From: an uncultured virus (IMG/VR IMGVR_UViG_3300025789_000021) | Lineage: Duplodnaviria; Heunggongvirae; Uroviricota; Caudoviricetes | Virus record (IMG/VR): IMGVR_UViG_3300025789_000021 | Length of the DNA: 64,000 nt | Direction: 5' to 3' (one strand) | Notes under the pieces: model-generated | Database searches by the model: none | The model's input: the letters and a program-made list of their open reading frames with translations, nothing else | Told to the model about the DNA's origin: nothing | Shown here: one piece after another, positions 22,801-61,132 of the stretch | Layout: each line of letters begins with the position of its first letter | Position numbering within the stretch: the stretch's first letter is position 1 | Position numbers and translations under genes: made by a program

Positions 22801-25800
22801 CTTAGTCCGGTCACTAAGTTATAGATTACGTCATTGAATAATGTAAAATTATTAAACACAATACCGTGCTCAAAGTTACTGATATCAAATTGTCCGTATG
22901 CCATAGCATCGCCAACATTTTGTGTTTTAACACTAAACAAATTGTTATTACGAAATATTGCTAAATCTTTATTTTCAATAGGATAAAGATTTTGATTCAG
23001 GATGAAATTTTGGTCCTGAATGGTCAACGGTTGAACCAGTAGATTCTGTGGACTAATTTCCAATAAGCCTGCTGCAGGATTCAATGTAATAATGCTGCCA
23101 ATATTCCATCCAGTCTGTGCCCAATAAAGAAACTCTTGGATCATTTGCGTCCAAGTTACTTGTATGCCATTCTGAATGTCATTAAATAACATTCCTTGTG
23201 TTTCAAGATATTTACCATAACACATTAAAAATTGCGCAAGGTCTTGTGCATTGTAGAATTTTGTCCCATATGGGACGATATCTGTTTGAGTGGCAGAATA
23301 ATTTCTATATAAATTTACGGAAATATTTTGAACTGTAAGATTAGTTGTTCCTTTTCCTATCAATGGATTCGCAATGGTAAAATAAGCATAAAGTTGTGAA
23401 TTCCCATATACTGTCCAGTACCCATCATTCTGCTGCACTATGACGCCACTATACATTATTCTGTCTGACGGTTGATTATTGTACAGTAGAATTTTGTAAC
23501 TTTCGTCTGGAATTAATAATGACGAATTGTTACTGTTAGGTGATCCTTTTTCTACATAAAACTGTAGTAAATTTTTATCACTAAATCCGGCTAAACGATA
23601 AACCAGTCTTACATCCAAATTATTCAGCAACGTAGTAGTGTCAGCAGTAGCATCAATTCCCTGCTGCTTCTGATAATCTACAATCCAGTTAATATAACTT
23701 GTTTTAGCAGTACCATTACCATATATTTCAATATTGGATAGTACTAAGTGACTTCTGTTATTAACGAGATATTGGTTAAAATCAGAATTATATTGGTAGT
23801 TGTCCAAGTCGACTCCCAAGTTGAAAAATTCAGCAGGACGAGTCAGAGCGTAAATTTTCATAAGGTCAAATGGATAAGTTGAACTGCGACGATATGAAAA
23901 TTCTGTTGGAGCATCATCTCCTACAGCCCAGTCTTTTTGGAAAGTGCTTGGGTTGTAGTTTCCAATAATTGATTGAAATGGTGAAAGCAATGTGCCATTC
24001 GTGTCAACTGGAATTATTTTTGACAGTCCGGGGCGGGCAAATTCCGTATTGATATACGGATTGCCATTGTTCCATATATAACCTGCTTCAAGATCACCCC
24101 AAAGAATACCATTATCGCTTGTATATGGTAGTGGACCATAGCGCGTTGTCCACCATGTTGGTTCATTGGCAAATCCGAGCATTTCCCAAGGAGTTTGATC
24201 AGGAGTTGTTGTATCGTAAAAGTATTCATACACTCCTCTCCAATATCCTTGTTGAATAGGAGCATTATTCAGTCTATTTGCTGAATTAGTATAATTATAT
24301 GTTAGAGTATTACTGCTATTATAATATTGCGTCTTGTAATCTAAACGATTCTGTCCAACCCAATTTAGGAACAATGGACTATAGATAGACATGAAGTCTT
24401 TATAGCTATATGTTGGATTTCTAAAGAAACCGGGTACGATTTCAAATTTTGAAATTGGAATCTTGGTGCTTAATTTCAAATTATTAAACACTCTGTTTTC
24501 AAATTCAAATAATGCCTGATCTCTGAAATCGGTGAGTACACCCAGAATCTGATCATAAGTTCCATAAAGTTTAGTATATGATCCATCGTGTCCCTTTATG
24601 AACCATGTCGGATTTGTGTAATTAGAGTCCAATACAATGGCAGGCTGAAATGCAGGGTATAGTCCCAGTTTTGTAGGAGTATTTGGCGCATATGATCCAT
24701 ATGTTTGATTATACTCTTTAATAATAATTTGATCCCCTGCCTGTAGGTTAATCAACACTTCTAATGATGGTGAATCCGTATTAATTACGTAATCGACGCC
24801 AGACAACAATTGCTTTTCAACGGTAACGCCAGTAATATTGGTAATATGATAAACCAATACTCCATTATAGTTCGCAGTTGCAAAATTATATATTTGACTT
24901 AGTGGATAAAATGTACTACTTGACAAATTATTAAATGTGTATGTATTTGACACGTATGGCGTCTGAGACGGCAGCATGTCTGACCAAAAGAATGACTGGT
25001 CGCGGGTTTTTGCAGCAGTGATTTTTTGCAATGCCACATCTAAAATTTGTGAAGGCGTATAACGCTGTACATAGTCAGTGTTCTGAACGGTATTAACAAT
25101 CAACTGTTTATATGTAATGTATTCACGGCTGTTATACAGAAGAGCATCAAATATATTATATCTAGGTGAGCGAAGGAATGCTCCCGGCAAGACAAGAGAG
25201 GCAGAATTCTGAATAATCTTCGTTCCATATGGCAAAAGATTACCTAAATCTCTGTAATTGTTGGCTCCAAAAATTGGACCCGTTGTGTTTGGGGCATTAA
25301 TGTATATGTCTTGATATTGGTCGCGAATATCACCCATATTAACGATGGCTAAATCTTCGTTAAATGGATTATTATTTAAGTTGATTGGTATATCATAATA
25401 AGCCAAGTTACTTACTTGGTCACTAAGTACCAGAATTTGTATTACAGTTTTTGCAGTCGGAACATTTGCAAGTGTTATAGTAGTTGTAGTAGGACCAACA
25501 CTAACAGTATAGTTGTTTGGGTTTACATATGTGTTATTTATGTATACTTTGATCGTTGGCCAACCGGGATTATCTGATGTTGGTTCACTGAGAGCAGCAA
25601 CATCACATACAAATGATGTAGTTGTGTTAACCAATGGATCAAAATTGTAATTAAATACTTGATACTGCACACTGTCAGCGATTGCAGTTTGCCAACCTAG
25701 CTGTTTTACTTCCATGGCAATATCAGTATAATTATATACGTAACCAATATTTACCTTTTCTGTAATTGGGGTAGTGCCATTAATATACGAAAATGTGTCA

Positions 25801-39434: not shown

Positions 39435-39764
39435 TTATACTCCCAAAACTTCTCTCAATGTAGCCAGAGTAGGTATATATATCCCCGTGCCTGCTGTAAA
39501 TTTAAAGTATGGATCGGGTCCTAAGGTATTAGGATTTCTCCCAGCAAACACCCACCAAAGTTTTGAATCGTTATACAAATCATATGCTAATAAATCAGGT
39601 CTATATTCATATGTTTGAGTTATAATCATATATACGTCCGTAGGATTCAGTGGAATAGTCCTATATACCAGTAAATCCAAATATTTATTATTAATTATAT
39701 CTGTATTATAGTAAGGGCTTGAAGCAGGGTATATTACCTGATTAGATGATTTTGTAGAACTCAT
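39435..39764 (-). CDS. gp53: Baseplate wedge protein (gp53/LysM-like)
   Basis: YEYRPDLLAYDLYNDSKLWWVF motif; ATG 39764 lies in a TAATG overlap. Confidence 0.8.
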   Translation of the reverse strand: MSSTKSSNQVIYPASSPYYNTDIINNKYLDLLVYRTIPLNPTDVYMIITQTYEYRPDLLAYDLYNDSKLWWVFAGRNPNTLGPDPYFKFTAGTGIYIPTLATLREVLGV

Positions 39765-41740
39765 TACCAAATTCCCGTATTGATACTATTTTGCTCATTA
39801 ATGGATGGAAACAATCTTCCACTTGAATAATCCCTGAGACTAAATTTGTTTGAAATATCATTTCTACTGACCATGGGAACAGCGATGATTTGCATTTGTA
39901 TTTTTGTCGGTACCCAAGTGGTAGGAACATTTGCCGTTTTTGGTGTAGCAGGAAATACTGGAGGTGCACCAATACCCCCTTTACTGACATTTGCAGGAAG
40001 GCGACTTGCACTCTGACTTCCACCCCCGGTTGTTCTTTTATTATTTACGATAGATTCAGGAATTCCTGCGGCAGAAGGCGCAGTTGTCATGATGTAATCC
40101 ACATCTGGTGGCAAAACGTACCCAAATGACTGTATTGCTAATGGATGATTATCAAACTGCCAGCCACCGAAACCGTGTAGATAGCACAATGGGGGAGGAG
40201 TTCCATTTTTCGGATTATCATCCTGTCCATAAAACATTTTAGTAACTGATTTAAAAAAATGAATAACCGCCAACAAATAATTGGCTTCAAATGTGTCTTG
40301 TGCAGTAAACTCTGCAGTTATATTTATAGAATCAACGTAGCTACTTTTGTATTGATATATTCTATAGTTACTGTGTGTCAGTGTTTGTGGTTGATAGTCT
40401 GCTGCATAATTTACACTAATACCTGGTGTATACGGAAATATAACTCCGTTTGTTTGTACTAAGGGTTCTAATATACCCGGTTCAGAAGCCATATACAAGT
40501 AGTCAGCATCTGATGCTAAAGTAAGACGTACTCGCCAATCTACTGCTGATGTATAATTGCTTTGGACTTGTGCCGTTGCTTGTCCCTGTGTGGTGGCCTT
40601 AAGTCCCGTAGGCGCAGTTACTGTCAAGGAACCATCTGGGTTTGTTGTCGCTGCATTTCCTGGCCCGGTATACGTATATCCTAATTGATCTGCACGTGCT
40701 CGCTGATCTCCCGGACTCAAAGATGCTACTTGTTCCGGTGTTAAATTTGGATCATATATATCTGAAATATCATTACCTAGCGGTAAAGGTATATTTTGTG
40801 GTTCCTGAATAGGTGGAGGCGGTGGATCACTCAATGCAGCATCATTGATTTGTCCTATTGGTGTTGATTCAGCTATGGTTACTACGGGTTCTGGTGTTTT
40901 TGTTAAATCATTATTAATATTGAGTGCAGCATCATTGATTTGTCCTATTGGTGTTGATTCAGCTATGGTTACTACGGGTTCTGGTGTTTTTGTTAAATCA
41001 TTATTAATATTGAGTGCAGCATCATTGATTTGTCCTATTGGTGTTTGAATGATGGAATTATCCGGATTAGGTGCTCCGCCTTCATCAGGATTCCATGGCA
41101 CCGGTTCAGAAATTATTGCTGGGCCTGGTAACATGGACGAATCGGTTAATGTTAATACCTTGACTATAGAAGTTTGATTAGCTATTTCATCTTGTGCGAT
41201 TGTTTGTTGCGCTTCAACATTACTGTTTCCGACTCTGCTTGTGTTGTAAGCATCTAATTCTTTGGGATCGATCGGTGGCGCGCCGTAATAGATTTGACCT
41301 GTATCAGGATTTACTTTCTGATAATTGGCAAGTCCGTCTATCTGATCTGGTGGGATGTTAGTTGTTTGCGCCTCAATTAATTGTGGTGGATTACCAGATG
41401 AAGACAGTGAATTTGGATCAGTACCGGACGTTGCTTGTGTTATTATGGATTTATTTACAGATTGAGCAGCTATACCTAAATTTGAAATAACAGATAAGGC
41501 TTGCTCTTTTGGGAGATTTATAATGGATTGTCCGATTTGTATTGTTGATGTGGCACTGCTTATACCAGTGGTACTGTCCGGGGGATTGGTAACAGTTATA
41601 TTTGATATATCATTTTCAGAAAGACCAGATATGGTTTGTCCATTAATTGTTACTGCATATGTAGTTGGTGCAGAATCAGGGTCTGGAGTTGTGCCAGTTA
41701 TAGTCGCTGTTGGGGTTATATATCTGGTTGCAGTTGGCAT
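39764..41740 (-). CDS. Baseplate / tail-tube initiator protein (gp48/gp54-like C-terminal domain) with low-complexity N-terminus
   Basis: DWRVRL...GVIFPYTP...LTHSNY...PPPLCYLHGFG; first gene of the baseplate operon. Confidence 0.6.
   Translation of the reverse strand: MPTATRYITPTATITGTTPDPDSAPTTYAVTINGQTISGLSENDISNITVTNPPDSTTGISSATSTIQIGQSIINLPKEQALSVISNLGIAAQSVNKSIITQATSGTDPNSLSSSGNPPQLIEAQTTNIPPDQIDGLANYQKVNPDTGQIYYGAPPIDPKELDAYNTSRVGNSNVEAQQTIAQDEIANQTSIVKVLTLTDSSMLPGPAIISEPVPWNPDEGGAPNPDNSIIQTPIGQINDAALNINNDLTKTPEPVVTIAESTPIGQINDAALNINNDLTKTPEPVVTIAESTPIGQINDAALSDPPPPPIQEPQNIPLPLGNDISDIYDPNLTPEQVASLSPGDQRARADQLGYTYTGPGNAATTNPDGSLTVTAPTGLKATTQGQATAQVQSNYTSAVDWRVRLTLASDADYLYMASEPGILEPLVQTNGVIFPYTPGISVNYAADYQPQTLTHSNYRIYQYKSSYVDSINITAEFTAQDTFEANYLLAVIHFFKSVTKMFYGQDDNPKNGTPPPLCYLHGFGGWQFDNHPLAIQSFGYVLPPDVDYIMTTAPSAAGIPESIVNNKRTTGGGSQSASRLPANVSKGGIGAPPVFPATPKTANVPTTWVPTKIQMQIIAVPMVSRNDISNKFSLRDYSSGRLFPSINEQNSINTGIW
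40835..41045. repeat. Exact 90-bp tandem repeat (about 2.3 copies)
   Basis: tgcagcatcattgatttgtcctattggtgtt starts at 40835, 40925 and 41015; encodes TPIGQINDAALNINNDLTKTPEPVVTIAES. Confidence 0.9.
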
Positions 41741-41771
41741 AATTTTCCTTTGATAAATACTTTCCTAATTG

Positions 41772-41777
41772 TATTTA
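41772..41777 (-). promoter_or_regulatory. Late (gp55-type) promoter core TAAATA for the baseplate operon
   Basis: TAAATA recurs before structural genes: minus strand 6374, 10874, 32079, 41772, 48696; plus strand 48682, 53344, 55179, 55485, 59603, 61684, 62871. Resembles T4 TATAAATA. Confidence 0.7.
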
Positions 41778-41810
41778 TCGCACAAAAATACCCGATTTTT
41801 TACCCATAAC

Positions 41811-41866: not shown

Positions 41867-42772
41867 GTGGCAACAACACCAATCACAAAACCGACTAAGA
41901 AGGTAAATTATCTAAACAATCGCGACATTCTTAAAGAAATACACAAAAGCAAGACTACCTATTGCTATTTCACTGATCCAGAATATCATGCATATGATCT
42001 GATCATTGATGCTCCTGAAAGTTCAATTGAATTTGCTCTTGAGTATGCATTAAAGCCCGAACAGGTTCAGTCCGCAAAGACATCACGAGCGGCAAGATTA
42101 ACATTAGAGTCGGGTGAAAAAATTCTCCCTGAATCAATTCCAACAGAGGATTTAGTATTTCGTGTGATGACTTGGGACCACATTCCTGTTTCACAGAAGC
42201 AACCAAGAAAAACAAACCGAAAGAAAACTGCAAAAGATATCATTGTATTTGATGAAGATGAAGGCGAAGATTTCTCTGATTTAGAAGATAAGACCACTAA
42301 AGGTGAAGTAGACGACATGGTTCATGTCAAAGTAAACTTTCCACCATTCCAACATTTTAAACTTGATGAAACAAATACGTTCAGATGTGTAGGTAAGTCT
42401 CATTGGGTTGATGGGTTGGAGAATGGACATTTCTCAAAGGATCATGGCAACATCACCAATAAACTGGCGAGAATGTATATGATGCTATGTGAAAAGTATG
42501 CAATGAAGTTTAACTGGCGTGGATATACATACAACGATGAAATGAAAGCCAGTGCGGTCCTACAATTGACTTATGTTGGACTCAGATTTAACGAAGCGAA
42601 ATCAGCTAATCCATTTGCTTATTATACCGCTGCTATCACAAATAGTTTCTGCCGAGTGCTAAACACCGAAAAGCGTAACCAAAATATCCGCGATGACATC
42701 TTGGAAATTAATGGGCTGAACCCTTCGTTCTCGCGACAGATGAGGGAAAATAAAACAACAGTTTTGGACTAA
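41867..42772 (+). CDS. gp55: Late transcription sigma factor (T4 gp55-like)
   Basis: NYLNNRDIL..I, NWRGYTYNDEM...A.LQL, FNEAKSANPFAYYT..ITNSF motifs; precedes gp47/gp46 as in T4-like phages. Confidence 0.85.
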   Translation: MATTPITKPTKKVNYLNNRDILKEIHKSKTTYCYFTDPEYHAYDLIIDAPESSIEFALEYALKPEQVQSAKTSRAARLTLESGEKILPESIPTEDLVFRVMTWDHIPVSQKQPRKTNRKKTAKDIIVFDEDEGEDFSDLEDKTTKGEVDDMVHVKVNFPPFQHFKLDETNTFRCVGKSHWVDGLENGHFSKDHGNITNKLARMYMMLCEKYAMKFNWRGYTYNDEMKASAVLQLTYVGLRFNEAKSANPFAYYTAAITNSFCRVLNTEKRNQNIRDDILEINGLNPSFSRQMRENKTTVLD

Positions 42773-42823: not shown

Positions 42824-43840
42824 ATGAAAAACCTATTCAAAAAAGCAGCAGTGTTCACTGATATACATTTCGGACTAAAGAGTAACAGCCTACAGCACAA
42901 TCAAGATTGCGCAGATTTCGTTGATTGGTTTATATCAAAGGCAAAAGAGGAGGGGTGTGAAACATGTTTGTTTCTTGGTGATTGGAATCATCATAGAGCA
43001 AGTATAAACATTCACACCCTTCAATTTGGGTTACGTGCTTTAGAAAAATTAAACAATGCATTTGAGCGTGTTTTATTCATTCCGGGAAACCATGATCTTT
43101 ATTACCGTGATCGCAGAGACATTCACTCGGTAGAGTGGGCATCACATCTTCCCAATATCACAATCGTTAATGATTGGTTTTGTGAAGGGAATGTTGTCAT
43201 TGCGCCATGGCTTGTTGGTGATGATTATAAGAAGTTACCAAAATTAAAAGGCAAATATATGTTTGGGCACTTTGAACTGCCAAACTTCTACATGAACGCA
43301 ATGGTTCAAATGCCTGATCATGGAGAACTTAACTTAGACCATATTCAGCAATTTGATAAAGTATTCTCCGGTCACTTTCATAAGAGACAGGCAAGAAGGA
43401 ACGTATGGTACATTGGAAACGCGTTTCCCCATAACTATGCGGACGCTGGTGACGATGCCAGAGGAATGATGGTACTTGAGTGGGGAGAAGAGCCTGAGTT
43501 TCATGCATGGCCACAACAGCCGCTATTCAGAGTATACAAACTCAGTGACGTTCTGGACAATCCTGATGGGTTACTTCTTCCTAAGACAAACGTTCGTGTC
43601 CATCTTGACATTGACATTTCATATGAAGAGGCGAACTTCATTAGAGAAACTCTGATACCAACACATAATCTTCGTGAAATGTCGCTCATTCCAATAAAGA
43701 ATAGCGAGCACATTCAAGATTTAGAAACAGGTGAACTTAAGTTTGAATCAGTTGATCAAATAATTGTTGACCAAATTACCGCCATAGAGAGCGATTTCTA
43801 TGATTCTAAACTTCTGTTGGCTATTTATGAGTCAATATGA
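42824..43840 (+). CDS. gp47: Recombination endonuclease subunit (gp47/Mre11/SbcD-like)
   Basis: Metallophosphoesterase motifs TDIHFG, LGD, GNHD, GH and SGHFH. Confidence 0.92.
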   Translation: MKNLFKKAAVFTDIHFGLKSNSLQHNQDCADFVDWFISKAKEEGCETCLFLGDWNHHRASINIHTLQFGLRALEKLNNAFERVLFIPGNHDLYYRDRRDIHSVEWASHLPNITIVNDWFCEGNVVIAPWLVGDDYKKLPKLKGKYMFGHFELPNFYMNAMVQMPDHGELNLDHIQQFDKVFSGHFHKRQARRNVWYIGNAFPHNYADAGDDARGMMVLEWGEEPEFHAWPQQPLFRVYKLSDVLDNPDGLLLPKTNVRVHLDIDISYEEANFIRETLIPTHNLREMSLIPIKNSEHIQDLETGELKFESVDQIIVDQITAIESDFYDSKLLLAIYESI

Positions 43841-43944: not shown

Positions 43945-44029
43945 TGCTGATAGCTCCTTCTTAGCAATTAGAGTGGGTGGGGATTGCAGTCCCGTGACTC
44001 ACATTTATTTATATATTTAACAAAAACCA

Positions 44030-44058
44030 TTGATTTATACCTAACAGGATGTTATAAT
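44030..44058 (+). promoter_or_regulatory. Sigma70-like promoter for gp46
   Basis: TTGATT-N17-TATAAT, ending 6 nt before ATG 44065. Confidence 0.65.
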
Positions 44059-44064
44059 ACTATC

Positions 44065-46152
44065 ATGTCAATCATTCTCAAAAATATAACCCTTCGTAAC
44101 TTCCTTTCAATTGGAGCAGTTACCCAAGCAGTAAATTTTGACAGCAAAGAATTAACTCTTATCATGGGTCAAAATTTAGACCTTGGAGGAGATGGTGCAA
44201 GAAATGGAACGGGCAAAACCACTCTGATACAAGGGCTGGCTTATGTTCTATTTGGTTCACCAATTAATAGCATTCGTAAAGATAACCTTATCAACCGCAC
44301 CAATGGTAAAGGTATGATGGCTACTCTTGAATTTAGTGCTAATGGGATTGACTATAAGATTGAACGAGGAAGAAAACCAAACATCCTTAGGTTCTTCGTG
44401 AATAATAGTTTACAAGAGCATAAAGACGATTCCGCTCAAGGTGAAAACAAGGAAACTCAGGCTGCAATTGAGCGCGCTATCGGTATGTCATCCGATATGT
44501 TCAAGCATATTGTTGCTTTGAATACGTATTCAGAGCCATTCCTTGCCCTTGGTTCAGGACCACAAAGAGATATTATTGAACAGTTGCTTGGTATTACCTT
44601 GTTGTCCGAAAAGGCTAAAGCCATAAAGGATAAACTGAATGTCAATAAAGATAATATCCAGCAAGAAGAATTCAAGGTCAAGGCTATTGAAGAAGCAAAC
44701 AAAAGAGTTCAGGAACAAATTGAAAGCCTAAAACGTAGACAGTCTTTGTGGATCAAGAAACATGAGGCAGATTTAAATAGTCTTGTAACAGACTATGATG
44801 AACTAAGCAAGATTGATATTGAGGCGGAATTACAATCTCATAAAGACTTCTCTGTATATCAAGAAAAAAAGAAAAAGCAAGATGCAATCAGTGCGCTCGT
44901 CGCTAGACAAGTAGCATGGAAGCAAAAGCAGTCCAAGGATATTGCTGCTCTTCAAAGCACATATGATGCTCTGAGTCATATTGATATTGATGCGGAATTA
45001 CAAGCCCACAAGTCCGTTGCCGAATGGAAGCATAAAAAGGCTGATGCCGATAAGTTCAACTTGACAAAGGCGAATCTAGAAAAGAATATTATTCGCGAAA
45101 CCGGAATCATCAAGAAACTTTCAGAAGAAATTGCAACTTTGGAAAGTAACAGGTGCTATGCATGTGGTCAAGATTTTCATGATGAAAATCATGTAACCGT
45201 TTTGGACGATAAAAAGGCATTGCTTGCTTCTGCACAGAACGATCTTACCCAAAACCAAAATGATTTAGAAAAAATAAAAAATGCATTAAATGATTTGAAT
45301 TTGGGTAAACAGCCATCCACTCATTATAAGACTGAATCCGAGGCGATCAAACACAGTTCCGAACTTGAAAACATTCAAAATAAAATTGCTTCTAAAAACC
45401 ATGAGACCGATCCCTATGCTGAGCAAATTACAGAAAATGATACCTTAGAAGCCCTCGGACCCGTTCCAAAGACTATATACGATACTGAAGCGCAGGCGAT
45501 TGAACATAGATCAACCGTGCATAACCTGCTGCAACAGATTGAACGTAAGGTAGCAGAAGTTGATCCCTATGCTGAGCAGGTTATTGAAATGGAATCTAAA
45601 GCATTACAAGAAATTGATTTTGAAAAGATCAACGAGTTGTCACGTTATGGTGATCACTTGAAGTTTCTCATGGACCTATTGACCAGTAAAGACTCATTTA
45701 TTCGTAAGAAGATCATTGATCAAAACTTGTCCTATTTAAACGCAAGACTTACTCATTATCTGGATAAAATGGGACTGCCCCATACTGTTATCTTCAAGAA
45801 TGACTTGTCGGTTGAAATTACTGAACTCGGGCGTGAGTTGGATTTTGATAATTTATCACGCGGTGAGCGGAACCGACTGATTCTTGGTCTTTCGTTTGCA
45901 TTTAGAGATGTGTGGGAAAACTTGTATCGTCCTATTAATACTTTGTTCATTGACGAATTGATTGACTCGGGCTTAGACTCTATAGGAGTTGAAAACGCAA
46001 TGGCTGTTCTCAAAGAAATGTCTCGTAACCGCAACAAGTCAATCTGGCTCGTTTCACACAGAGAAGAACTTGCAGGGCGTGTTCCAAGTGTTCTCAAGGT
46101 TGTCAAGGAGGCTGGGTTCACCTCATATTCCACATCAACCGATATAGAATAA
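44065..46152 (+). CDS. gp46: Recombination ATPase (gp46/Rad50/SbcC-like)
   Basis: Walker A NGTGKT, zinc hook CYAC, signature LSRGE, Walker B LFIDE, LVSH; likely start ATG 44065. Confidence 0.93.
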   Translation: MSIILKNITLRNFLSIGAVTQAVNFDSKELTLIMGQNLDLGGDGARNGTGKTTLIQGLAYVLFGSPINSIRKDNLINRTNGKGMMATLEFSANGIDYKIERGRKPNILRFFVNNSLQEHKDDSAQGENKETQAAIERAIGMSSDMFKHIVALNTYSEPFLALGSGPQRDIIEQLLGITLLSEKAKAIKDKLNVNKDNIQQEEFKVKAIEEANKRVQEQIESLKRRQSLWIKKHEADLNSLVTDYDELSKIDIEAELQSHKDFSVYQEKKKKQDAISALVARQVAWKQKQSKDIAALQSTYDALSHIDIDAELQAHKSVAEWKHKKADADKFNLTKANLEKNIIRETGIIKKLSEEIATLESNRCYACGQDFHDENHVTVLDDKKALLASAQNDLTQNQNDLEKIKNALNDLNLGKQPSTHYKTESEAIKHSSELENIQNKIASKNHETDPYAEQITENDTLEALGPVPKTIYDTEAQAIEHRSTVHNLLQQIERKVAEVDPYAEQVIEMESKALQEIDFEKINELSRYGDHLKFLMDLLTSKDSFIRKKIIDQNLSYLNARLTHYLDKMGLPHTVIFKNDLSVEITELGRELDFDNLSRGERNRLILGLSFAFRDVWENLYRPINTLFIDELIDSGLDSIGVENAMAVLKEMSRNRNKSIWLVSHREELAGRVPSVLKVVKEAGFTSYSTSTDIE

Positions 46153-46190
46153 AAAAAATACGTGCGTTGGTAAAAGAGATAAATCAGTAT

Positions 46191-46760
46191 ATGACATCAC
46201 CACAGAAAGCAAAAGGCTCTTCATTTGAACGCGAAGTAGCAAAATTCTTATCCGAAACATACAACGAAAGTTTTATCAGAGCGCCGGGTTCAGGTGCGTA
46301 TGTGGGCGGCAAGAATCAAGCTCGTAAGGAGTTCCTTCATGAGGGACAGGTTCGCAGTTTCAAGGGTGATATCGTGCCGGGACAGTCTTTTACAAAATTC
46401 AACGCAGAATGCAAATCTTATGCAGATTTCCCATTTCATCAGTTATTAACTGGCAATTGCAAAGTATTTGATACTTGGATTGAACAGCTTATGGCAGTGG
46501 CAGACGAAGGCGATTGTAACATTCTATTCATGAAGTTTAATCGTAAAGGTCGTTATGTAGCCGTTCAAGCTAAGTATACATGGATAACCGATTATTTCAC
46601 TTACTATAGTTCACCTACAGTAGGTGATTGGATATTCATTGAATTTGACCATTTTTTTAAAAACAACAAAGACTTATTTAAATCATATTCAAGCTCAACA
46701 TCCAGCACCGCAGACACCATGTCAGAACCCCCATCTAATATTCTCACCCTAAACATTTAA
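46191..46760 (+). CDS. PD-(D/E)xK nuclease, Holliday junction resolvase-like
   Basis: KAKGSSFEREVA...GDI...ECK motif; likely start ATG 46191. Confidence 0.7.
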   Translation: MTSPQKAKGSSFEREVAKFLSETYNESFIRAPGSGAYVGGKNQARKEFLHEGQVRSFKGDIVPGQSFTKFNAECKSYADFPFHQLLTGNCKVFDTWIEQLMAVADEGDCNILFMKFNRKGRYVAVQAKYTWITDYFTYYSSPTVGDWIFIEFDHFFKNNKDLFKSYSSSTSSTADTMSEPPSNILTLNI

Positions 46761-46799
46761 TCTAATATCTAGCCCATTTAAACCTAACACAAAACCAAC

Positions 46800-47270
46800 C
46801 CCACATTGATGTCTGGTGTACGTTCGTAGACCCTCCTTGAGGAAGCAGGATTTAAACCCCCTGTAGTCCGGATTCTGGAGTATGCCTGACCGAGAGGTCA
46901 GTGCCAGATTCAACATAGTCTGGTGGATGTTGATAGTAATATCAACCGCAAAACACTACACATCAATTGGTGTGTTGATTTGTGTTTAGGAATACCGACA
47001 GGGCAATCGTTAGTAGACGAACCCTGAATGAGTCTGTACCCTGTTTATCTCGTGGGAACAGAACATGCGTTGCCGAGGGGTCGGAAAGACCGATAGCCTC
47101 ACTACACCTCCATAAATACCTTACAGGGCAACCGGTGGCGGTCAACAGCGATTAAAAGGCTAGTTGACCGGGAGAGAGATAATAATGAATGACGGCCATG
47201 GCAAGTTGTAAATTAGTAGTGCTTTCTTACGGAAGCACTACTATGTCTTCAAACCGGCAATGCTATTTAA
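46800..47270 (+). ncRNA. Candidate large structured non-coding RNA of unknown class
   Basis: No credible ORF, GC-richer than its surroundings, about ten hairpins plus long-range helices, GNRA loops on the + strand (see findings). Confidence 0.65.
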
Positions 47271-47343
47271 GAAGCACCTAAATGATCATTACTCTTCTTA
47301 AGAATAATAAAAAATAATCTAAAAAAATCAATTCTGAAAGAAA

Positions 47344-47413
47344 TGAAAACGAACAAAGTGAGTTTTCAGATGAACGAAGTTCATCAATCATATTGAAACA
47401 ATTGATGAACTTC
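47344..47413. repeat. Cluster of overlapping inverted repeats between convergent units
   Basis: TGAAAAC/GTTTTCA; GATGAAC-GAA-GTTCATC; 13-bp GAAGTTCATCAAT/ATTGATGAACTTC. Confidence 0.7.
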
Positions 47414-47436
47414 TTATGGATTCCGGATAGAAATAA

Positions 47437-47667
47437 TTAGAAGAATGGCATTTGAGTTTTTTTAGTAACTTCGAGATTGCCATCAATTACTTCTTGTATT
47501 GCACCCCTCTCAGATTCAGACATATTGAGAATATCTTCGTATGATACCCCACCACGCATATACCAAGACAGCGTTAATGCTGATTTCTTTACTGCCGCGA
47601 CATCCTTTTCATATCCTTCTAGCAGCTTTCTAATCTCTTCGGGCTTAGAGTTTAGAAGCCTTACACG
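47437..47667 (-). CDS. Start-less ORF (76 codons), probable -1 frameshift extension of the upstream chaperone (gp51-like position)
   Basis: RVRLLNSKPEEIRKLLEGYEKDVAAVKKSALTLSWYMRGGVSYEDILNMSESERGAIQEVIDGNLEVTKKTQMPFF*; entered through T TTT TTC at 47673-47667. Confidence 0.75.
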   Translation of the reverse strand, partial: RVRLLNSKPEEIRKLLEGYEKDVAAVKKSALTLSWYMRGGVSYEDILNMSESERGAIQEVIDGNLEVTKKTQMPFF

Positions 47668-48644
47668 AAAAAATCTGATGGATTTAAAGTAAATGGTTGA
47701 GTGTATTCATGGTTACATTGTGGGCATTGCATGTTGAGAGGTTTAATTTCTCCTGCTTCCTTCAGTGAAGCATTATAATCTCTAAGTTTAACAAATAAAT
47801 TTCTATCACAATTTTTTAAAAAATCAAGAATGAAAGTTTTATCTGTTACCTTTGTAGCAGGAGTTTGAATATACTCAATAGTAGATGATAATAGTTCAAG
47901 AGTTAATGTTGTAATTTTTTCTAGCGCAGCATGACTTTTTTCGTCTCTTTCTTTTGCGTCTTCAATCATGGTAATACTTGAAAACTCTCTCTGAATTTCA
48001 AATTGCTTCAATGAAACATCGTTTATTTCTCTATACGTGAGTGGTCTAAACTTTACATTTAGGTCTCCCGTATCATACAATGTGTTATAATCTGACACAC
48101 CAAGAGTTGATAACATTCCCATGAGATTTACGCCAAATTTGGTTTCTTCGTCGCATCCGGGACAAGTAGTTTCAATTTCCATGTCTCCTGAACTACCCGC
48201 TGCTTTAATACCAATTAAAATTGCATCCAAATCAACATTAGTAACTGACCATGGGTCCTTGATATTTGGAATACAACTTCTAATCAATTCCGCAACGGCA
48301 GAACCGTTAAACAATGCATCAGGTGTTCTTGCCGTAATCTCGTCAATTGCAGTCATTGGGTATACTGGAAGTTCTCCCGTTTCTGGCATATCAATTGCAC
48401 CAACAGGATACCCTATGCCACCACTCGGTAATTTAATATGAACAGTTGGTCTTCTAAAATATTGACGAAGTGGGTTAACATCTGATGGTGGTACTTGTGT
48501 TGGATTCATCGTCTGTGGTATAGGTGAATTTACAAATTGATCTGTTGTGTTTGTAGGTAGATCATTATAAATTGGAGTGAATCCGGCTACTGGGATTCCC
48601 ATATTTGTATTCTGGGTAGGTGGAATAGGAATGTTATTGTCCAT
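47661..48644 (-). CDS. Baseplate hub / tail assembly chaperone (gp26-like)
   Basis: IKLPSGG..YP, VYPMTAIDEI, two CPxC motifs and a C-terminal DFF; adjacent to the tape measure gene. Confidence 0.75.
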   Translation of the reverse strand: MDNNIPIPPTQNTNMGIPVAGFTPIYNDLPTNTTDQFVNSPIPQTMNPTQVPPSDVNPLRQYFRRPTVHIKLPSGGIGYPVGAIDMPETGELPVYPMTAIDEITARTPDALFNGSAVAELIRSCIPNIKDPWSVTNVDLDAILIGIKAAGSSGDMEIETTCPGCDEETKFGVNLMGMLSTLGVSDYNTLYDTGDLNVKFRPLTYREINDVSLKQFEIQREFSSITMIEDAKERDEKSHAALEKITTLTLELLSSTIEYIQTPATKVTDKTFILDFLKNCDRNLFVKLRDYNASLKEAGEIKPLNMQCPQCNHEYTQPFTLNPSDFFV

Positions 48645-48738
48645 TTTTTTAATTTCCTCAAAATGATGGTTTTAGAAATGCTAAATACATAAGAGTATTT
48701 ATTGTACAAAAATACCAAAATATATTTAGGTTGAGATA

Positions 48739-53340: not shown

Positions 53341-53374
53341 TACTAAATAGTCTATAACTAAGAGAAATAGGTTC

Positions 53375-59574: not shown

Positions 59575-59613
59575 TATAATTGACAAATGCTGCTGACTAT
59601 GATAAATAAAAGT

Positions 59614-60414
59614 ATGAAACATTTTATTTACAAAACAACTCACAAAAACGGCAAATACTATATTGGCAGACATAGCACCGACAACATAGAAGATGGTTAT
59701 GTTGGGTCAGGTAAATGGCCATTGTCCATTAAAGATAAATCATCACTGACTCGTGAAATATTGGAGTTTGTTGATGATTTTGACACGCTGGTTAAACGTG
59801 AAGGCGAATATCTCACAGAACATTATGGTAAACCCAATTGCATGAATAATAACATTGATCCCATTGGATTTGATTCCGGTGATAATAATCCGATGCGAAA
59901 TCCCGAGATAGCGGCAAAGATATCCGGAGATAATCACTGGCTAAAGCGAAATCCGGAAAGAAAAGAAGATTTTAGGAACCAACAGCTTAATAGGGTTAAA
60001 GACGGGAGTCACAATTTTTTGGGAAACGATAATCCAAACAAAGATGGAAGAAACGCCAAATTGGCATATGAACGTGGAACACACAATACCTTGACTAACA
60101 ACCCATCAACCGTAAATGCTACTAATGGGACACACCATTGGCAAGATGGTAAAAGTCCAAACTACCAAGGAAAACTTAATAAAAGGTTAGTTGAAGAAGG
60201 TCGTCATAATTTCCTTGGTCCGGAGTTGAATCAGAAACGGATTGATGAAGGAAATCATAATCTTGTTGGATCAGACACGAATCTTAAAATGTTAGCCGAA
60301 GGTAAACATCCATCACAACAAAAGAAAACCTGTGAACATTGTGGAAAAACTGCGAGTGTTGGGATGTATAAACGTTGGCACGGTGATAACTGTAAGAACA
60401 ATAAGGACAAGTGA
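59614..60414 (+). CDS. Free-standing GIY-YIG (Seg-like) homing endonuclease
   Basis: FIYKTT...YYIGRHST...DGYVGSG, repeated G.HN(F/L) motifs, C-terminal CEHC...YKRWHGDNC. Confidence 0.82.
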   Translation: MKHFIYKTTHKNGKYYIGRHSTDNIEDGYVGSGKWPLSIKDKSSLTREILEFVDDFDTLVKREGEYLTEHYGKPNCMNNNIDPIGFDSGDNNPMRNPEIAAKISGDNHWLKRNPERKEDFRNQQLNRVKDGSHNFLGNDNPNKDGRNAKLAYERGTHNTLTNNPSTVNATNGTHHWQDGKSPNYQGKLNKRLVEEGRHNFLGPELNQKRIDEGNHNLVGSDTNLKMLAEGKHPSQQKKTCEHCGKTASVGMYKRWHGDNCKNNKDK

Positions 60415-60416
60415 AT

Positions 60417-60581
60417 ATGAATGAAGAAGAGCCAATCAACGAATATAAAAAGGAACCACAGATGCTCACTAAAGAGTTCTGTGAAGAATTGGTGCGGAGA
60501 GGAAAAGAAAATATAGAAAAATCTACACAAGCACTTAAGGAACTATATCAAGAACTGGGAATTTCGGATGAAGATCAATGA
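60417..60581 (+). CDS. Small hypothetical protein (54 aa), absent from the ORF track
   Basis: MNEEEPINEYKKEPQMLTKEFCEELVRRGKENIEKSTQALKELYQELGISDEDQ; AAGGA upstream; fills the gap. Confidence 0.55.
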   Translation: MNEEEPINEYKKEPQMLTKEFCEELVRRGKENIEKSTQALKELYQELGISDEDQ

Positions 60582-60864
60582 AATTACTGAAAAGAATATG
60601 GTTTGGAAAAATCTTATGGAGTTTGACTTTGACTTTGATACAGAATATAACAATGCAGAAAATTTCTCACGAATAGTACTTAAGGTTAAACACCGAAACA
60701 AATATCAGATAGCACATGAGTTAATGGATCACTTCAATAGCCGCGCCAAAGATTTCATTGATGCTAACCCATTTGATCCTACTGACCCAGATATCATTGC
60801 GCTACAAAATAAAGTGAGAAAGATGATTGCCAATTTGAATCAACTTGCTACGCAACTTATTTAA
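60568..60864 (+). CDS. Hypothetical protein with MKINEI leader
   Basis: 98-aa ORF in the plus-strand run. Confidence 0.65.
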   Translation: MKINEITEKNMVWKNLMEFDFDFDTEYNNAENFSRIVLKVKHRNKYQIAHELMDHFNSRAKDFIDANPFDPTDPDIIALQNKVRKMIANLNQLATQLI

Positions 60865-60877
60865 AGGAAAAGATGAA

Positions 60878-61132
60878 ATGAAAGACAATGAGTGTGTTGA
60901 AATCCTTGAAGACGGAACAGTATATTACTTTGATCTGGATGTATGCAACAGAGAAGCAGAAAAGGCAATTGAAGAACTTCACATGAAAGAAGGAGTACTT
61001 CCAAACTTTGACTATACTTCATCAATTTTCACTCTCTTTATAAGTTCCATTCAAATCCTTAGTCAGTCTGGCTGGACAACGGATGAATTACTACAGGAAG
61101 TTCTGAACCATTCAGAAGCCGAAGATGAGTAA
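60878..61132 (+). CDS. Hypothetical acidic protein
   Basis: AAGGA before ATG 60878; TAATG overlap with the next gene. Confidence 0.65.
   Translation: MKDNECVEILEDGTVYYFDLDVCNREAEKAIEELHMKEGVLPNFDYTSSIFTLFISSIQILSQSGWTTDELLQEVLNHSEAEDE

What the first reader, a model, noticed from the sequence alone, without database searches (positions are those of the whole stretch)
46800..47270. Candidate novel large structured RNA downstream of the recombination/resolvase operon
Seen: the largest gene-free gap in the window is GC-richer than its flanks and almost fully pairable. Hairpins: CTGACC-GAGA-GGTCAG (46886-46901), CCAGATT/AGTCTGG (46904-46923), GTTGATA-GTAA-TATCAAC (46929-46946), AAACAC/GTGTTT around ACACATC/GGTGTGT (46951-46987), CAGGG-TCGT/ACGA-CCCTG (46999-47026), CTGTTT/GAACAG (47041-47061), GAGG-GGTC-GGAAA-GACC-CCTC (47075-47100), CGGTCAAC-AGC/GCT-GTTGACCG (47139-47170) and a 13-bp stem at 47214-47243. 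Long-range helices GTAT-CCT/AGG-ATAC, CGGATTC/GAGTCTG (46869/47030) and GTTGCC/GGCAAC (47069/47127) close multibranch junctions. GNRA loops and G-U pairs work on the + strand, which points to RNA. I do not recognise tRNA, tmRNA, RNase P or intron hallmarks, and it interrupts no gene. Inference: an undescribed phage ncRNA, perhaps a ribozyme, a scaffold for the neighbouring nucleases, or a replication primer RNA.
Basis: partly seen in the sequence, partly recalled or inferred. Interest (0 to 1): 0.85.

Follow-up and report, generated by a model that had tools for sequence, protein, structure and literature searches.

The report
New large structured RNA, jumbo phages
A stretch of about 400 to 470 bases between two genes of a giant freshwater T4-like phage folds into a conserved, doubly knotted RNA shape that is shared by more than a hundred related phage contigs and matches no catalogued RNA family, so it is probably a new kind of functional RNA whose job is still unknown.

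Summary
The finding holds. Window 46761-47660 is the largest truly gene-free gap. It is GC-richer than its flanks and folds better than shuffles (z -4.61).

- **Conservation:** All 25 of 25 related viral loci found through the upstream nuclease gene carry the element. A 20-nt core motif hit at least 119 viral contigs.
- **Structure:** On 87 unique homologs, a model of 75 pairs in 13 helices is 93.7% paired, against 34-43% when the partners are slid. 51 pairs show compensatory changes, and 0 of 500 shuffles reach the observed values.
- **Architecture:** A four-way junction is locked by two pseudoknots, with variable peripheral hairpins.
- **Strand:** G-U outnumbers A-C 255 to 92, which points to an RNA on the + strand.
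- **Not coding**.
- **No known family:** No Rfam 15 family matches the window or recurs in 20 homologous loci.
- **Distribution:** One copy in each of 5 of 5 complete 333-364 kb genomes. None in three cultured relatives. None of 8 motif hits in bacterial genome contigs was confirmed.

Function and expression are untested. An odd triplicated strand suggests alternative pairings. I read it as a new RNA class of real interest.

The parts
46711..46724 (+). Upstream motif M1 (CAGACACCATGTCA). It is a mini hairpin with an ACCAN loop, lying inside the S/T-rich C-terminal tail of the nuclease ORF. It may be the 5' extension or a processing signal of the RNA.
   Evidence: Unique in the 64-kb window. 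Present within 170 nt upstream in 56 of 71 unique homologous loci, with more than one copy in 3. The stem is swapped GAC/GTC to GTC/GAC in L015. The tail is absent from 3 of 3 cultured homologs.
46789..46814 (+). 5' leader. Nucleotide conservation starts here. The CATTG in it is complementary to r3.
   Evidence: Alignments. The leader-r3 complementarity reaches 5-11 bp in several lineages, but the self-versus-cross test shows no signal (5.15 vs 5.01).
46815..46832 (+). Ha, the first hairpin.
   Evidence: Different stem sequences in different lineages keep the hairpin. It was not counted formally because the two clades are aligned one column out of register, and RNAalifold gave nothing on that block.
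46833..46880 (+). Hb/Hc extended hairpin. CTCC (46833-36) pairs with GGAG (46877-80). It has a nearly invariant internal loop (TTGA / GGATTCT) and a variable distal stem.
   Evidence: Hb 100% paired, with 2 of 4 pairs covarying. Hc 79-82% paired, with 5 of 7 pairs covarying. Invariant columns are listed.
46886..46988 (+). Hd, the variable arm. The conserved-position hairpin is 46886-46901. An 87-nt expansion of three hairpins (46902-46988) is specific to this lineage.
   Evidence: The expansion is absent from all but L004/L005. Other lineages carry other inserts at this point (L044, L059, L075). The base pair of Hd covaries (cols 145-252: AT31 GC26 CG11 GT9 TA4).
46993..47137 (+). Hm, a long-range helix: TACCG (46993-97) with CGGTG (47133-37). 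It closes a four-way junction of Hm, He, Hf and Hk.
   Evidence: Found by RNAalifold. 98.4% paired. The outer pair reads UA50 CG19 UG11 other7, and the four inner pairs are invariant. 47120 covaries with the same column, so a triple or an alternative pair is possible.
46999..47026 (+). He hairpin: a 5-bp outer stem, an internal loop, and a 3-bp inner stem.
   Evidence: 99.8% and 100% paired. 5 of 8 pairs covary, for example GC49/CG30/UA7.
47028..47066 (+). Hf hairpin (47028-30 with 47064-66, and 47033-39 with 47056-62). Its loop forms PK1.
   Evidence: 10 of 10 pairs covary and the helix is 98.3% paired.
47045..47182 (+). PK1 pseudoknot: the Hf loop (47045-50) pairs with 47177-82.
   Evidence: UA53/CG30/AU4, GC51/AU36, CG63/UA22/UG2. 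6 of 7 pairs covary. These are also top mutual-information pairs. G-U 25 against A-C 0.
47069..47132 (+). Hk helix: GTTGCC (47069-74) with GGCAAC (47127-32). It encloses Hg and a conserved single strand (ACTACA..., ...TTACAG).
   Evidence: Five pairs are invariant or nearly so. The sixth reads UA27 CG23 UG7 GA20 AG10.
47075..47100 (+). Hg, a variable hairpin.
   Evidence: The base pairs covary (AU38/GC35/GU13). Length varies from 0 to about 45 nt.
47108..47174 (+). PK2 pseudoknot: 47108-11 pairs with 47171-74.
   Evidence: 96.8% paired and 4 of 4 pairs covary (UA50/CG22/AU11/GC1). It is the second-highest mutual-information pair.
47139..47170 (+). Hh hairpin.
   Evidence: 9 of 11 pairs covary and the helix is 91.7% paired. 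G-U 109 against A-C 20.
47197..47212 (+). r2, the first copy of a direct repeat (...CATGGCAAG...).
   Evidence: It covaries by identity with r3. At least 5 bp are complementary to 47065-75 in 60 of 87 sequences.
47214..47243 (+). Hi, a nearly invariant hairpin of 9 to 13 bp.
   Evidence: 94.5% paired, with 3 of 9 pairs covarying. It occurs once per genome in 5 of 5 complete genomes.
47250..47265 (+). r3, the second copy of the direct repeat (...CCGGCAATG...). This is the last conserved block.
   Evidence: At least 5 bp are complementary to 47065-75 in 73 of 87 sequences. Identity with r2: self mean 5.62 against cross mean 4.92, with 0 of 5000 permutations reaching the self value.
47344..47413 (+). 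Two hairpins downstream, lying between the convergent transcription units. The first has the loop CGAACAAAGTGAG. The second is a strong 13-bp stem.
   Evidence: Fold z -3.31. The loop motif is unique in the window. The hairpins are visible in the homologs printed. A strict regex for the loop motif finds it in 42 of 68 loci.

Best explanation
This is a gene for a stably folded non-coding RNA of a family not yet described. It is made from the + strand of an uncultured clade of 330-365 kb T4-like freshwater phages.

Shown:
- A core of about 385 nt (465 nt here, because of an 87-nt expansion) is conserved in sequence and in base pairing.
- It folds into a four-way junction of helices Hm, He, Hf and Hk.
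- Two pseudoknots tie the Hf loop and the strand enclosed by Hk to the strand that follows hairpin Hh.
- Length variation is confined to peripheral arms (Hd, Hg).
- Many junction nucleotides are invariant.

Inferred:
- It is transcribed together with the gp47/gp46/nuclease genes and may be cut out of that transcript. I infer this because it starts 30-50 nt after the nuclease stop codon, or even inside the ORF tail, and no convincing promoter of its own was found.
- It ends at or before two conserved hairpins that separate it from the convergent late gene.
- It works through its three-dimensional fold, as a trans-acting RNA.
- My preferred guess is a protein-binding or self-assembling particle with two alternative states. 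Three GGCAA-type strands (47127-32, r2, r3) compete for two TTGCC-type strands (47065-75 and the 5' leader).

My odds:
- real functional structured RNA: 0.9
- new family: 0.85
- trans-acting particle rather than a ribozyme or a purely cis 3'-UTR element: about 0.5
For: - Synteny and conservation: 25 of 25 loci found through the nuclease protein carry the element. At least 119 viral contigs hold the core motif.
- Structure: 75 pairs are 93.7% paired, against 34-43% when slid. 51 pairs show changes on both sides (853 cells), and 0 of 500 shuffles reach any of the five measures. The top mutual-information pairs are almost all Watson-Crick partners of the model, including both pseudoknots.
- Strand: G-U 255 against A-C 92 overall. 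By helix: Hf 14:1, PK1 25:0, Hk 7:0, Hh 109:20.
- Thermodynamics: z -4.61 for the window and z -2.72 for a distant homolog, whose minimum-energy fold recovers Hm, He, Hf, Hk, Hg, Hh and Hi.
- Not coding: the median longest stop-free stretch is 68 aa in a 389-nt element, and gap lengths are not multiples of three.
- Core gene behaviour: exactly one copy in each of 5 of 5 complete genomes.
- No known family.
- Alternative pairings: r2 and r3 covary by identity, and both complement 47065-75.
Against: - No expression data: no RNA run holding the locus was listed, so the transcript, its ends and its strand are inferred only.
- Minimum free energy alone does not separate the strands in the distant homolog (z -2.72 against -2.58).
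- G-U and A-C counts are about equal in Hg (26:32) and Hi (17:19).
- Several helices (Hm inner pairs, Hk, Hb) are nearly invariant, so they say nothing for or against pairing.
- The 87 sequences are related. The shuffle control does not correct for this; only the slide control does.
- The sequences were collected with a 20-nt motif, which forces invariance in that block.
- No protein partner, target or activity is indicated by any result.
- The pairing of the 3' region (r2, r3, leader) is unresolved, and the leader-r3 test gave no signal.
Confidence: 0.6

Rival explanations
1. It is a ribozyme. It either cuts itself out of the operon transcript or acts on another RNA. The duplicated r2/r3 strands would be substrate and product mimics that dock on the invariant strand 47065-75, used like an internal guide.
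For: - The conservation pattern is typical of catalytic RNAs: invariant junction strands, a double pseudoknot, and variable peripheral arms.
- r2 and r3 are both complementary to one invariant strand and covary by identity.
- The core order (5' strand of Hm, two hairpins, 5' strand of PK2, 3' strand of Hm, one hairpin, 3' strand of PK2) resembles the P3/P7 pseudoknot of group I introns. This comparison is my own, drawn from recalled knowledge of group I architecture.
Against: - No known ribozyme model matches.
- No cleavage or ligation site can be named.
- No assay was possible.
- The same conservation pattern fits protein-binding RNAs and the ornate RNAs of unknown function.
Confidence: 0.15
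2. It is a cis-acting 3' end of the recombination-nuclease operon mRNA. In this reading the structured block protects the message from 3' exonucleases, or insulates convergent early and late transcription, and has no function in trans.
For: - It sits directly after the last gene of a co-oriented gene row and before convergent late genes, followed by two strong hairpins.
- No clear promoter of its own was found.
- Conserved nucleotide motifs begin inside the ORF tail.
Against: - A terminator or stabiliser needs one or two hairpins, not a 385-nt junction with two covarying pseudoknots and dozens of invariant unpaired bases.
- Cultured relatives with the same nuclease gene do without it.
Confidence: 0.15
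3. It is the RNA partner (scaffold, regulator or guide) of the PD-(D/E)XK nuclease encoded just upstream. This would be analogous to nuclease genes whose RNA overlaps their 3' end.
For: - Invariable adjacency: 25 of 25 loci, and all 87 aligned homologs follow the same ORF end.
- RNA-linked motifs lie inside the ORF tail.
- RNA-bearing phages have an extra C-terminal tail of about 20 aa on the nuclease. The tail is absent in 3 of 3 cultured homologs that lack the RNA.
Against: - Gene order is conserved throughout T4-like core regions, so adjacency is weak evidence.
- The nuclease family works without any such RNA in other phages.
- No guide-like variable segment was seen.
- No binding test was possible.
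Confidence: 0.07
4. It is a very divergent member of a known class (group I intron, RNase P RNA, tmRNA, GOLLD/ROOL), or it is a DNA-level element such as an origin or a recombination site.
For: - T4-like phages carry group I introns of similar size (recalled knowledge).
- The pseudoknot order is loosely similar to that of group I introns.
- The - strand also folds better than shuffles (z -3.37).
Against: - No Rfam model matches, even at E up to 5-10, in 21 homologs.
- ARAGORN finds no tmRNA.
- The element interrupts no gene: a stop codon precedes it in the homologs and no ORF resumes after it.
- No spacer separates Hh from the 3' strand of PK2, where a group I intron has J8/7.
- The G-U against A-C asymmetry and the compensatory changes in pseudoknots argue for single-stranded RNA, not duplex DNA.
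Confidence: 0.03

Closest known systems
GOLLD and ROOL RNAs (large ornate RNAs, often phage- or prophage-borne, of unknown function, shown to self-assemble; PMC12286853, of which I saw only the abstract in the search listing)
   Same: Large, multi-helix, pseudoknotted and phage-encoded, with no known protein partner or function. Length variation is confined to peripheral arms.
   Different: No match to any Rfam 15 family, so none to a GOLLD or ROOL model if the library holds them (that it holds them is recalled, not checked by accession). This RNA is smaller (about 385-465 nt). It is found in T4-like jumbo phages, next to recombination genes rather than tRNAs (the tRNA association is recalled). 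Oligomerisation is untested.
Group I self-splicing introns of T4-like phages (Rfam Intron_gpI; the accession and the architecture are recalled)
   Same: Similar size and host type. A pseudoknot in which a long-range helix encloses two hairpins, and a second helix bridges to the strand after a third hairpin.
   Different: No covariance-model match in 21 homologs. It interrupts no gene. An extra helix (Hk plus Hg) lies between the second hairpin and the pseudoknot strand. There is no joining strand where J8/7 would be. No conserved terminal G or U-G splice-site pair was found.
Candidate structured RNAs predicted from IMG/VR (PMC10690425; I read passages through 'find' and searched part of the supplements)
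   Same: Same data source and same kind of evidence (covariation in viral intergenic regions).
   Different: Those candidates average 67 nt and are unnamed. Four 13-nt words of this core gave 0 hits in the 6 supplementary files that could be searched. 3 files could not be searched, so I cannot exclude that fragments of this RNA are among them.
phi29 packaging RNA (recalled knowledge)
   Same: A phage-encoded, structured, trans-acting RNA that works through its fold.
   Different: No sequence or structural relation. T4-type packaging needs no RNA. The present RNA is more than twice as long.

Membership tests
Any Rfam 15 family (4227 models) | Covariance-model score at or above the family's gathering threshold | tested here: not met
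   0 matches in the whole window. At E up to 10 on 46600-47700 there were only three weak, unrelated hits, none inside 46790-47265. 20 homologous loci at E up to 5 gave 5 unrelated hits and no family twice.
Group I intron | Match to the Intron_gpI covariance model | tested here: not met
   The model is absent (21 sequences in all).
Group I intron | Interrupts a gene, so that flanking exons form one reading frame or one RNA | tested here: not met
   The nuclease ORF ends in a stop before the element in the window and in the homologs. AT-rich sequence with stops in all frames follows. Cultured homologs end about 20 aa before the window's stop.
Group I intron | P3-P7 pseudoknot with the P4-P6 domain, P8 and J8/7 | tested here: inconclusive
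   The order of Hm, He, Hf, PK2 and Hh is similar. However, an extra helix intervenes and no J8/7 spacer exists. The group I architecture is recalled.
Group I intron | Guanosine-binding site and self-splicing activity | not testable with these tools
   Needs biochemistry.
tmRNA / tRNA | tRNA-like domain detected by ARAGORN or Rfam | tested here: not met
   0 genes in the window. No Rfam hit.
RNase P RNA | Match to an RNase P covariance model | tested here: not met
Riboswitch or other 5' leader | Lies upstream of, and on the same strand as, the gene it controls | tested here: not met
   The next gene downstream is on the opposite strand (47661-48644, -).
Reverse-transcriptase-associated ncRNA (retron, DRT) | A reverse transcriptase gene in the same genome | tested here: not met
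   PF00078 was found in 0 of 5 complete genomes that carry the RNA. The control genomes gave hits.
Large ornate RNAs of unknown function (a descriptive kind, not a homologous family) | More than 300 nt, many conserved helices and pseudoknots, conserved unpaired bases, not explained by a known class | tested here: met

The most novel reading that the evidence does not exclude
This is a new class of large phage RNA that works as a machine in its own right, in one of three possible ways:
- a ribozyme;
- a self-assembling RNA particle;
- an RNA switch that controls or guides the neighbouring resolvase-type nuclease.

Its built-in toggle would be three interchangeable GGCAA strands competing for two TTGCC strands, which flips the 3' domain between two folds.
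Probability: 0.2. Interest if true: 0.9.

Novelty: categorically new. Interest (0 to 1): 0.78.

Why it matters
Large RNAs with this degree of conserved tertiary architecture are rare. Historically they have turned out to be ribozymes, ribonucleoprotein cores or, recently, self-assembling RNA cages.

Here a new one appears as a single-copy core gene of a whole clade of giant phages, with more than 85 distinct natural variants. That already gives enough covariation for a near-complete secondary structure, and a good starting point for cryo-EM or chemical probing.

It widens the short list of big phage RNAs beyond GOLLD and ROOL. It places one beside the recombination and repair genes of T4-like phages. 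It also offers a concrete puzzle, the triplicated competing strands, that can be tested with simple mutants.

The label 'categorically new' applies at the level of RNA family. The kind 'large ornate phage RNA of unknown function' exists already, and the function here is unknown.

Tried and rejected
- **Expression:** The look-up of sequencing runs listed 24 freshwater DNA runs and no RNA holder.
- **Cultured phages, DNA level:** blastn of the locus against 50,697 phage records gave no match.
- **Cultured phages, model R1:** the nearest cultured phages by the nuclease protein are Salicola SCTP-2, Pseudomonas PA5oct and Sinorhizobium Phosso. None has a gap after the gene. Model R1 found nothing in their whole genomes, nor with filters off on the three loci (best E 0.065, a fragment).
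- **Bacterial genomes:** the core motif hit 8 contigs, and 0 of 8 were confirmed by R1. By my own arithmetic about 17 chance hits are expected in that collection.
- **Reverse transcriptase:** 0 of 5 genomes.
- **Hi-like hairpins elsewhere as operator sites:** only the one copy in each of 5 genomes.
- **Promoters:**
  - TATAAATA (recalled T4 late consensus) is not enriched and none lies near the RNA.
  - The sigma-70 scans are at chance level (7 found against 6.2 expected; 24 against 18.1).
  - The NTAAATAC-like motifs before late genes are not found just upstream of the RNA.
- **Upstream word:** the window's word at 46789-46802 is not repeated in the window.
- **Leader-r3 terminal helix:** self 5.15 against cross 5.01, so no signal.
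- **Ha:** RNAalifold on its alignment block gave no structure because of a one-column register shift between clades. Ha was left out of the formal count.
- **Earlier findings of this scan:** nothing by place or by sequence.
- **Literature:**
  - Three full-text searches found no description of this RNA.
  - A 2026 jumbo-phage review has no occurrence of 'structured RNA', 'ncRNA' or 'ribozyme' ('find' only).
  - The Minerva preprint concerns RT-linked arrays ('find' only).
- **Rows dropped before alignment A1:** 13 loci without the upstream anchor or too short were dropped, and exact duplicates were collapsed.
- **Pfam on the ORF at 59587-60411:** no family.

Full report
**Context.** The window is part of a T4-like phage genome.
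- The + strand carries a late sigma factor (gp55-like, 41867-42772), SbcD/gp47-like (42824-43840), SbcC/gp46-like (43984-46152) and a PDDEXK_15 nuclease (46167-46760).
- After the gap comes a convergent gp26-like baseplate hub gene (47661-48644, - strand), then a tail lysozyme and a gp20-type portal.
- The nearest held record is an 81.6-kb viral contig, G001.
- Relatives include complete genomes of 333-364 kb, so this is a jumbo phage.
- All 24 listed sequencing runs that hold the locus are labelled freshwater metagenome.

**The observation.**
- Between 46760 and 47661 no ORF exceeds 60 aa.
- GC is 0.455-0.50 inside, against 0.27-0.34 on either side.
- The + strand of 46800-47270 folds to -162.5 kcal/mol, z -4.61. 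The - strand gives z -3.37.
- The only other long gap (60415-61131) holds three small ORFs and is not structured (z +1.31).

**Relatives.**
- The nuclease protein retrieved 25 viral loci, and blastn found the downstream element in 25 of 25 at 67-85% nucleotide identity.
- I dropped 13 loci that were too short or lacked the upstream anchor, and collapsed duplicates. That left 87 distinct sequences, which were aligned as A1.
- The median element length is 389 nt. The window is longer because 46902-46988 (three hairpins) is an insertion shared only with L004/L005.
- Other lineages carry different insertions at the same arm or after the GGAG of Hb.

**Structure.**
- A scan for complementary covariation and a mutual-information scan, together with RNAalifold on the core, gave the model listed under 'parts'.
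- Counted on A1, the model has 75 pairs in 13 helices.
- 93.7% of 6320 cells are paired, against 33.9-43.0% when the 3' partners are slid by 1-3 columns.
- 51 pairs have changes on both sides (853 cells).
- 0 of 500 shuffles reach the observed value on any of the five measures.
- Helix Hm (46993-97 with 47133-37) closes a four-way junction with He, Hf and Hk.
- PK1 joins the Hf loop (47045-50) to 47177-82. PK2 joins 47108-11, which lies inside the loop closed by Hk, to 47171-74.
- Both pseudoknots rank among the strongest covarying pairs.
- 47120 covaries with the same column as the outer pair of Hm, so a base triple or an alternative pair is possible.
- Ha clearly changes sequence while staying a hairpin. 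It was not counted because the alignment is out of register there.

**Strand and coding.**
- Within the model, G-U cells outnumber A-C cells 255 to 92. The asymmetry is strong in Hf (14:1), PK1 (25:0), Hk (7:0) and Hh (109:20). There is none in Hg and Hi.
- This favours an RNA read from the + strand. Folding energy alone does not decide the strand in a distant homolog.
- The element is not coding. The longest stop-free stretch has a median of 68 aa, and gap runs are mostly not multiples of three.

**What it is not.**
- No Rfam 15 family reaches threshold in the window.
- Permissive scans of the locus and of 20 homologous loci give only scattered unrelated hits.
- ARAGORN finds no tRNA or tmRNA.
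- It interrupts no gene.
- The genomes that carry it have no reverse transcriptase (0 of 5).
- Three literature searches and look-ups in three papers found no description of it.
- The IMG/VR catalogue of candidate structured RNAs lists short unnamed motifs (mean 67 nt). I could search only part of its supplements, with no hit.

**Distribution.**
- Covariance model R1 (206 positions of the core) finds exactly one copy in each of 5 of 5 complete genomes and one in the window.
- It finds none in Salicola phage SCTP-2, Pseudomonas phage PA5oct or Sinorhizobium phage Phosso, the closest cultured phages by the nuclease protein.
- It confirms none of the 8 motif hits in representative bacterial genomes.
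- The RNA is therefore a single-copy core gene of one uncultured clade.

**Unexplained features.**
- *Direct repeat.* Two segments flanking hairpin Hi, r2 (about 47197-47212) and r3 (about 47250-47265), are direct repeats that change together across lineages (GGCAAT, AGTAAT, GCAAGTA, GTTGAA, TGCATGT and others).
  - The mean longest shared word is 5.62 within a sequence against 4.92 between sequences. 0 of 5000 permutations reach the within-sequence value, though relatedness inflates this.
  - Both repeats are complementary to the nearly invariant strand 47065-75: r3 in 73 of 87 sequences and r2 in 60 of 87, at 5 bp or more.
  - That strand also forms Hk with 47127-32.
  - In several lineages the repeats are also complementary to the 5' leader, but that test shows no covariation signal.
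  - So three GGCAA-type strands compete for two TTGCC-type strands. The simplest reading is a pair of alternative folds, but I cannot say which is native.
- *Upstream motifs.* Conserved nucleotide motifs lie upstream, inside the nuclease ORF's S/T-rich tail. M1 is found in 56 of 71 loci and is unique in the window. M2 is found in 23 of 71. That tail is missing from the three cultured homologs.
- *Downstream hairpins.* Two conserved hairpins follow at 47344-47413.
- Together these suggest that the RNA is made as the 3' end of the operon transcript and then perhaps trimmed. This is inference only.

**Mechanism.**
- What is shown is a conserved, compact, pseudoknotted fold with invariant junction nucleotides and tolerated peripheral expansions.
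- That pattern is the signature of RNAs that act through their three-dimensional shape.
- I commit to a trans-acting folded RNA particle with two conformational states as the most likely reading. I give this about 0.5, given that the RNA is real.
- The rivals are a ribozyme (0.15), a purely cis 3'-UTR element (0.15), a partner of the adjacent nuclease (0.07) and a divergent known class or DNA element (0.03).
- None of these could be tested here because no RNA data and no cultured host exist.

**Verdict.** It is a new RNA family of substantial interest, with its structure largely solved by covariation and its function open.

Noticed in passing
window 47344-47413: A pair of hairpins lies between the RNA and the convergent gp26-like gene. 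The first has a conserved loop (CGAACAAAGTGAG in the window). The second is a 13-bp stem, which drew a spurious mir-3047 hit (E 0.027). The loop motif is unique in the window and recurs downstream of the RNA in relatives.
   Followed up: partly
L149 (Sinorhizobium phage Phosso) 1487-2500: A 1-kb stretch upstream of Phosso's homologous nuclease gene is unannotated and has no ORF above 74 aa. It folds better than shuffles (z -3.76, 20 shuffles). By eye it contains a similar twin-hairpin motif with GCGAA-type loops. Model R1 does not match it.
   Followed up: partly
window 46700-46760: The nuclease ORF carries an S/T-rich C-terminal tail of about 20 aa that is absent from 3 of 3 cultured homologs. 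The nucleotide-level motif M1 (46711-24) sits in it. The tail may be RNA or regulatory sequence read through by the ORF.
   Followed up: partly
window 41752-41779, 48681-48704, 53342-53350: NTAAATAC-like words stand on the appropriate strand before late genes (the divergent pair at 48645-48738, the portal gene, and the 39764-41740 / 41867 pair). They are probably this clade's late promoter. The exact T4 word TATAAATA is not enriched (5 found, 7.4 expected).
   Followed up: partly
window 10884-28670 (- strand): A single ORF of 5928 aa lies among structural genes. It was not analysed.
   Followed up: no
A1 columns 115-140 (L006, L007, L008, L013, L019, L021, L080, L089, L139): One sublineage carries an extra hairpin of about 24 nt (CCGAAGGTGCATTCCTTCAAA-like) inserted right after the GGAG of helix Hb. 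L044, L059/L108 and L075 have 40-60 nt inserts in arm Hd. So expansions occur at two fixed points.
   Followed up: no
window 60415-61131: The second-longest 'gap' between ORFs of 100 aa or more is filled by three co-oriented small ORFs (56, 98 and 95 aa) and is not structured (z +1.31). The ORF before it (59587-60411) has no Pfam match.
   Followed up: yes
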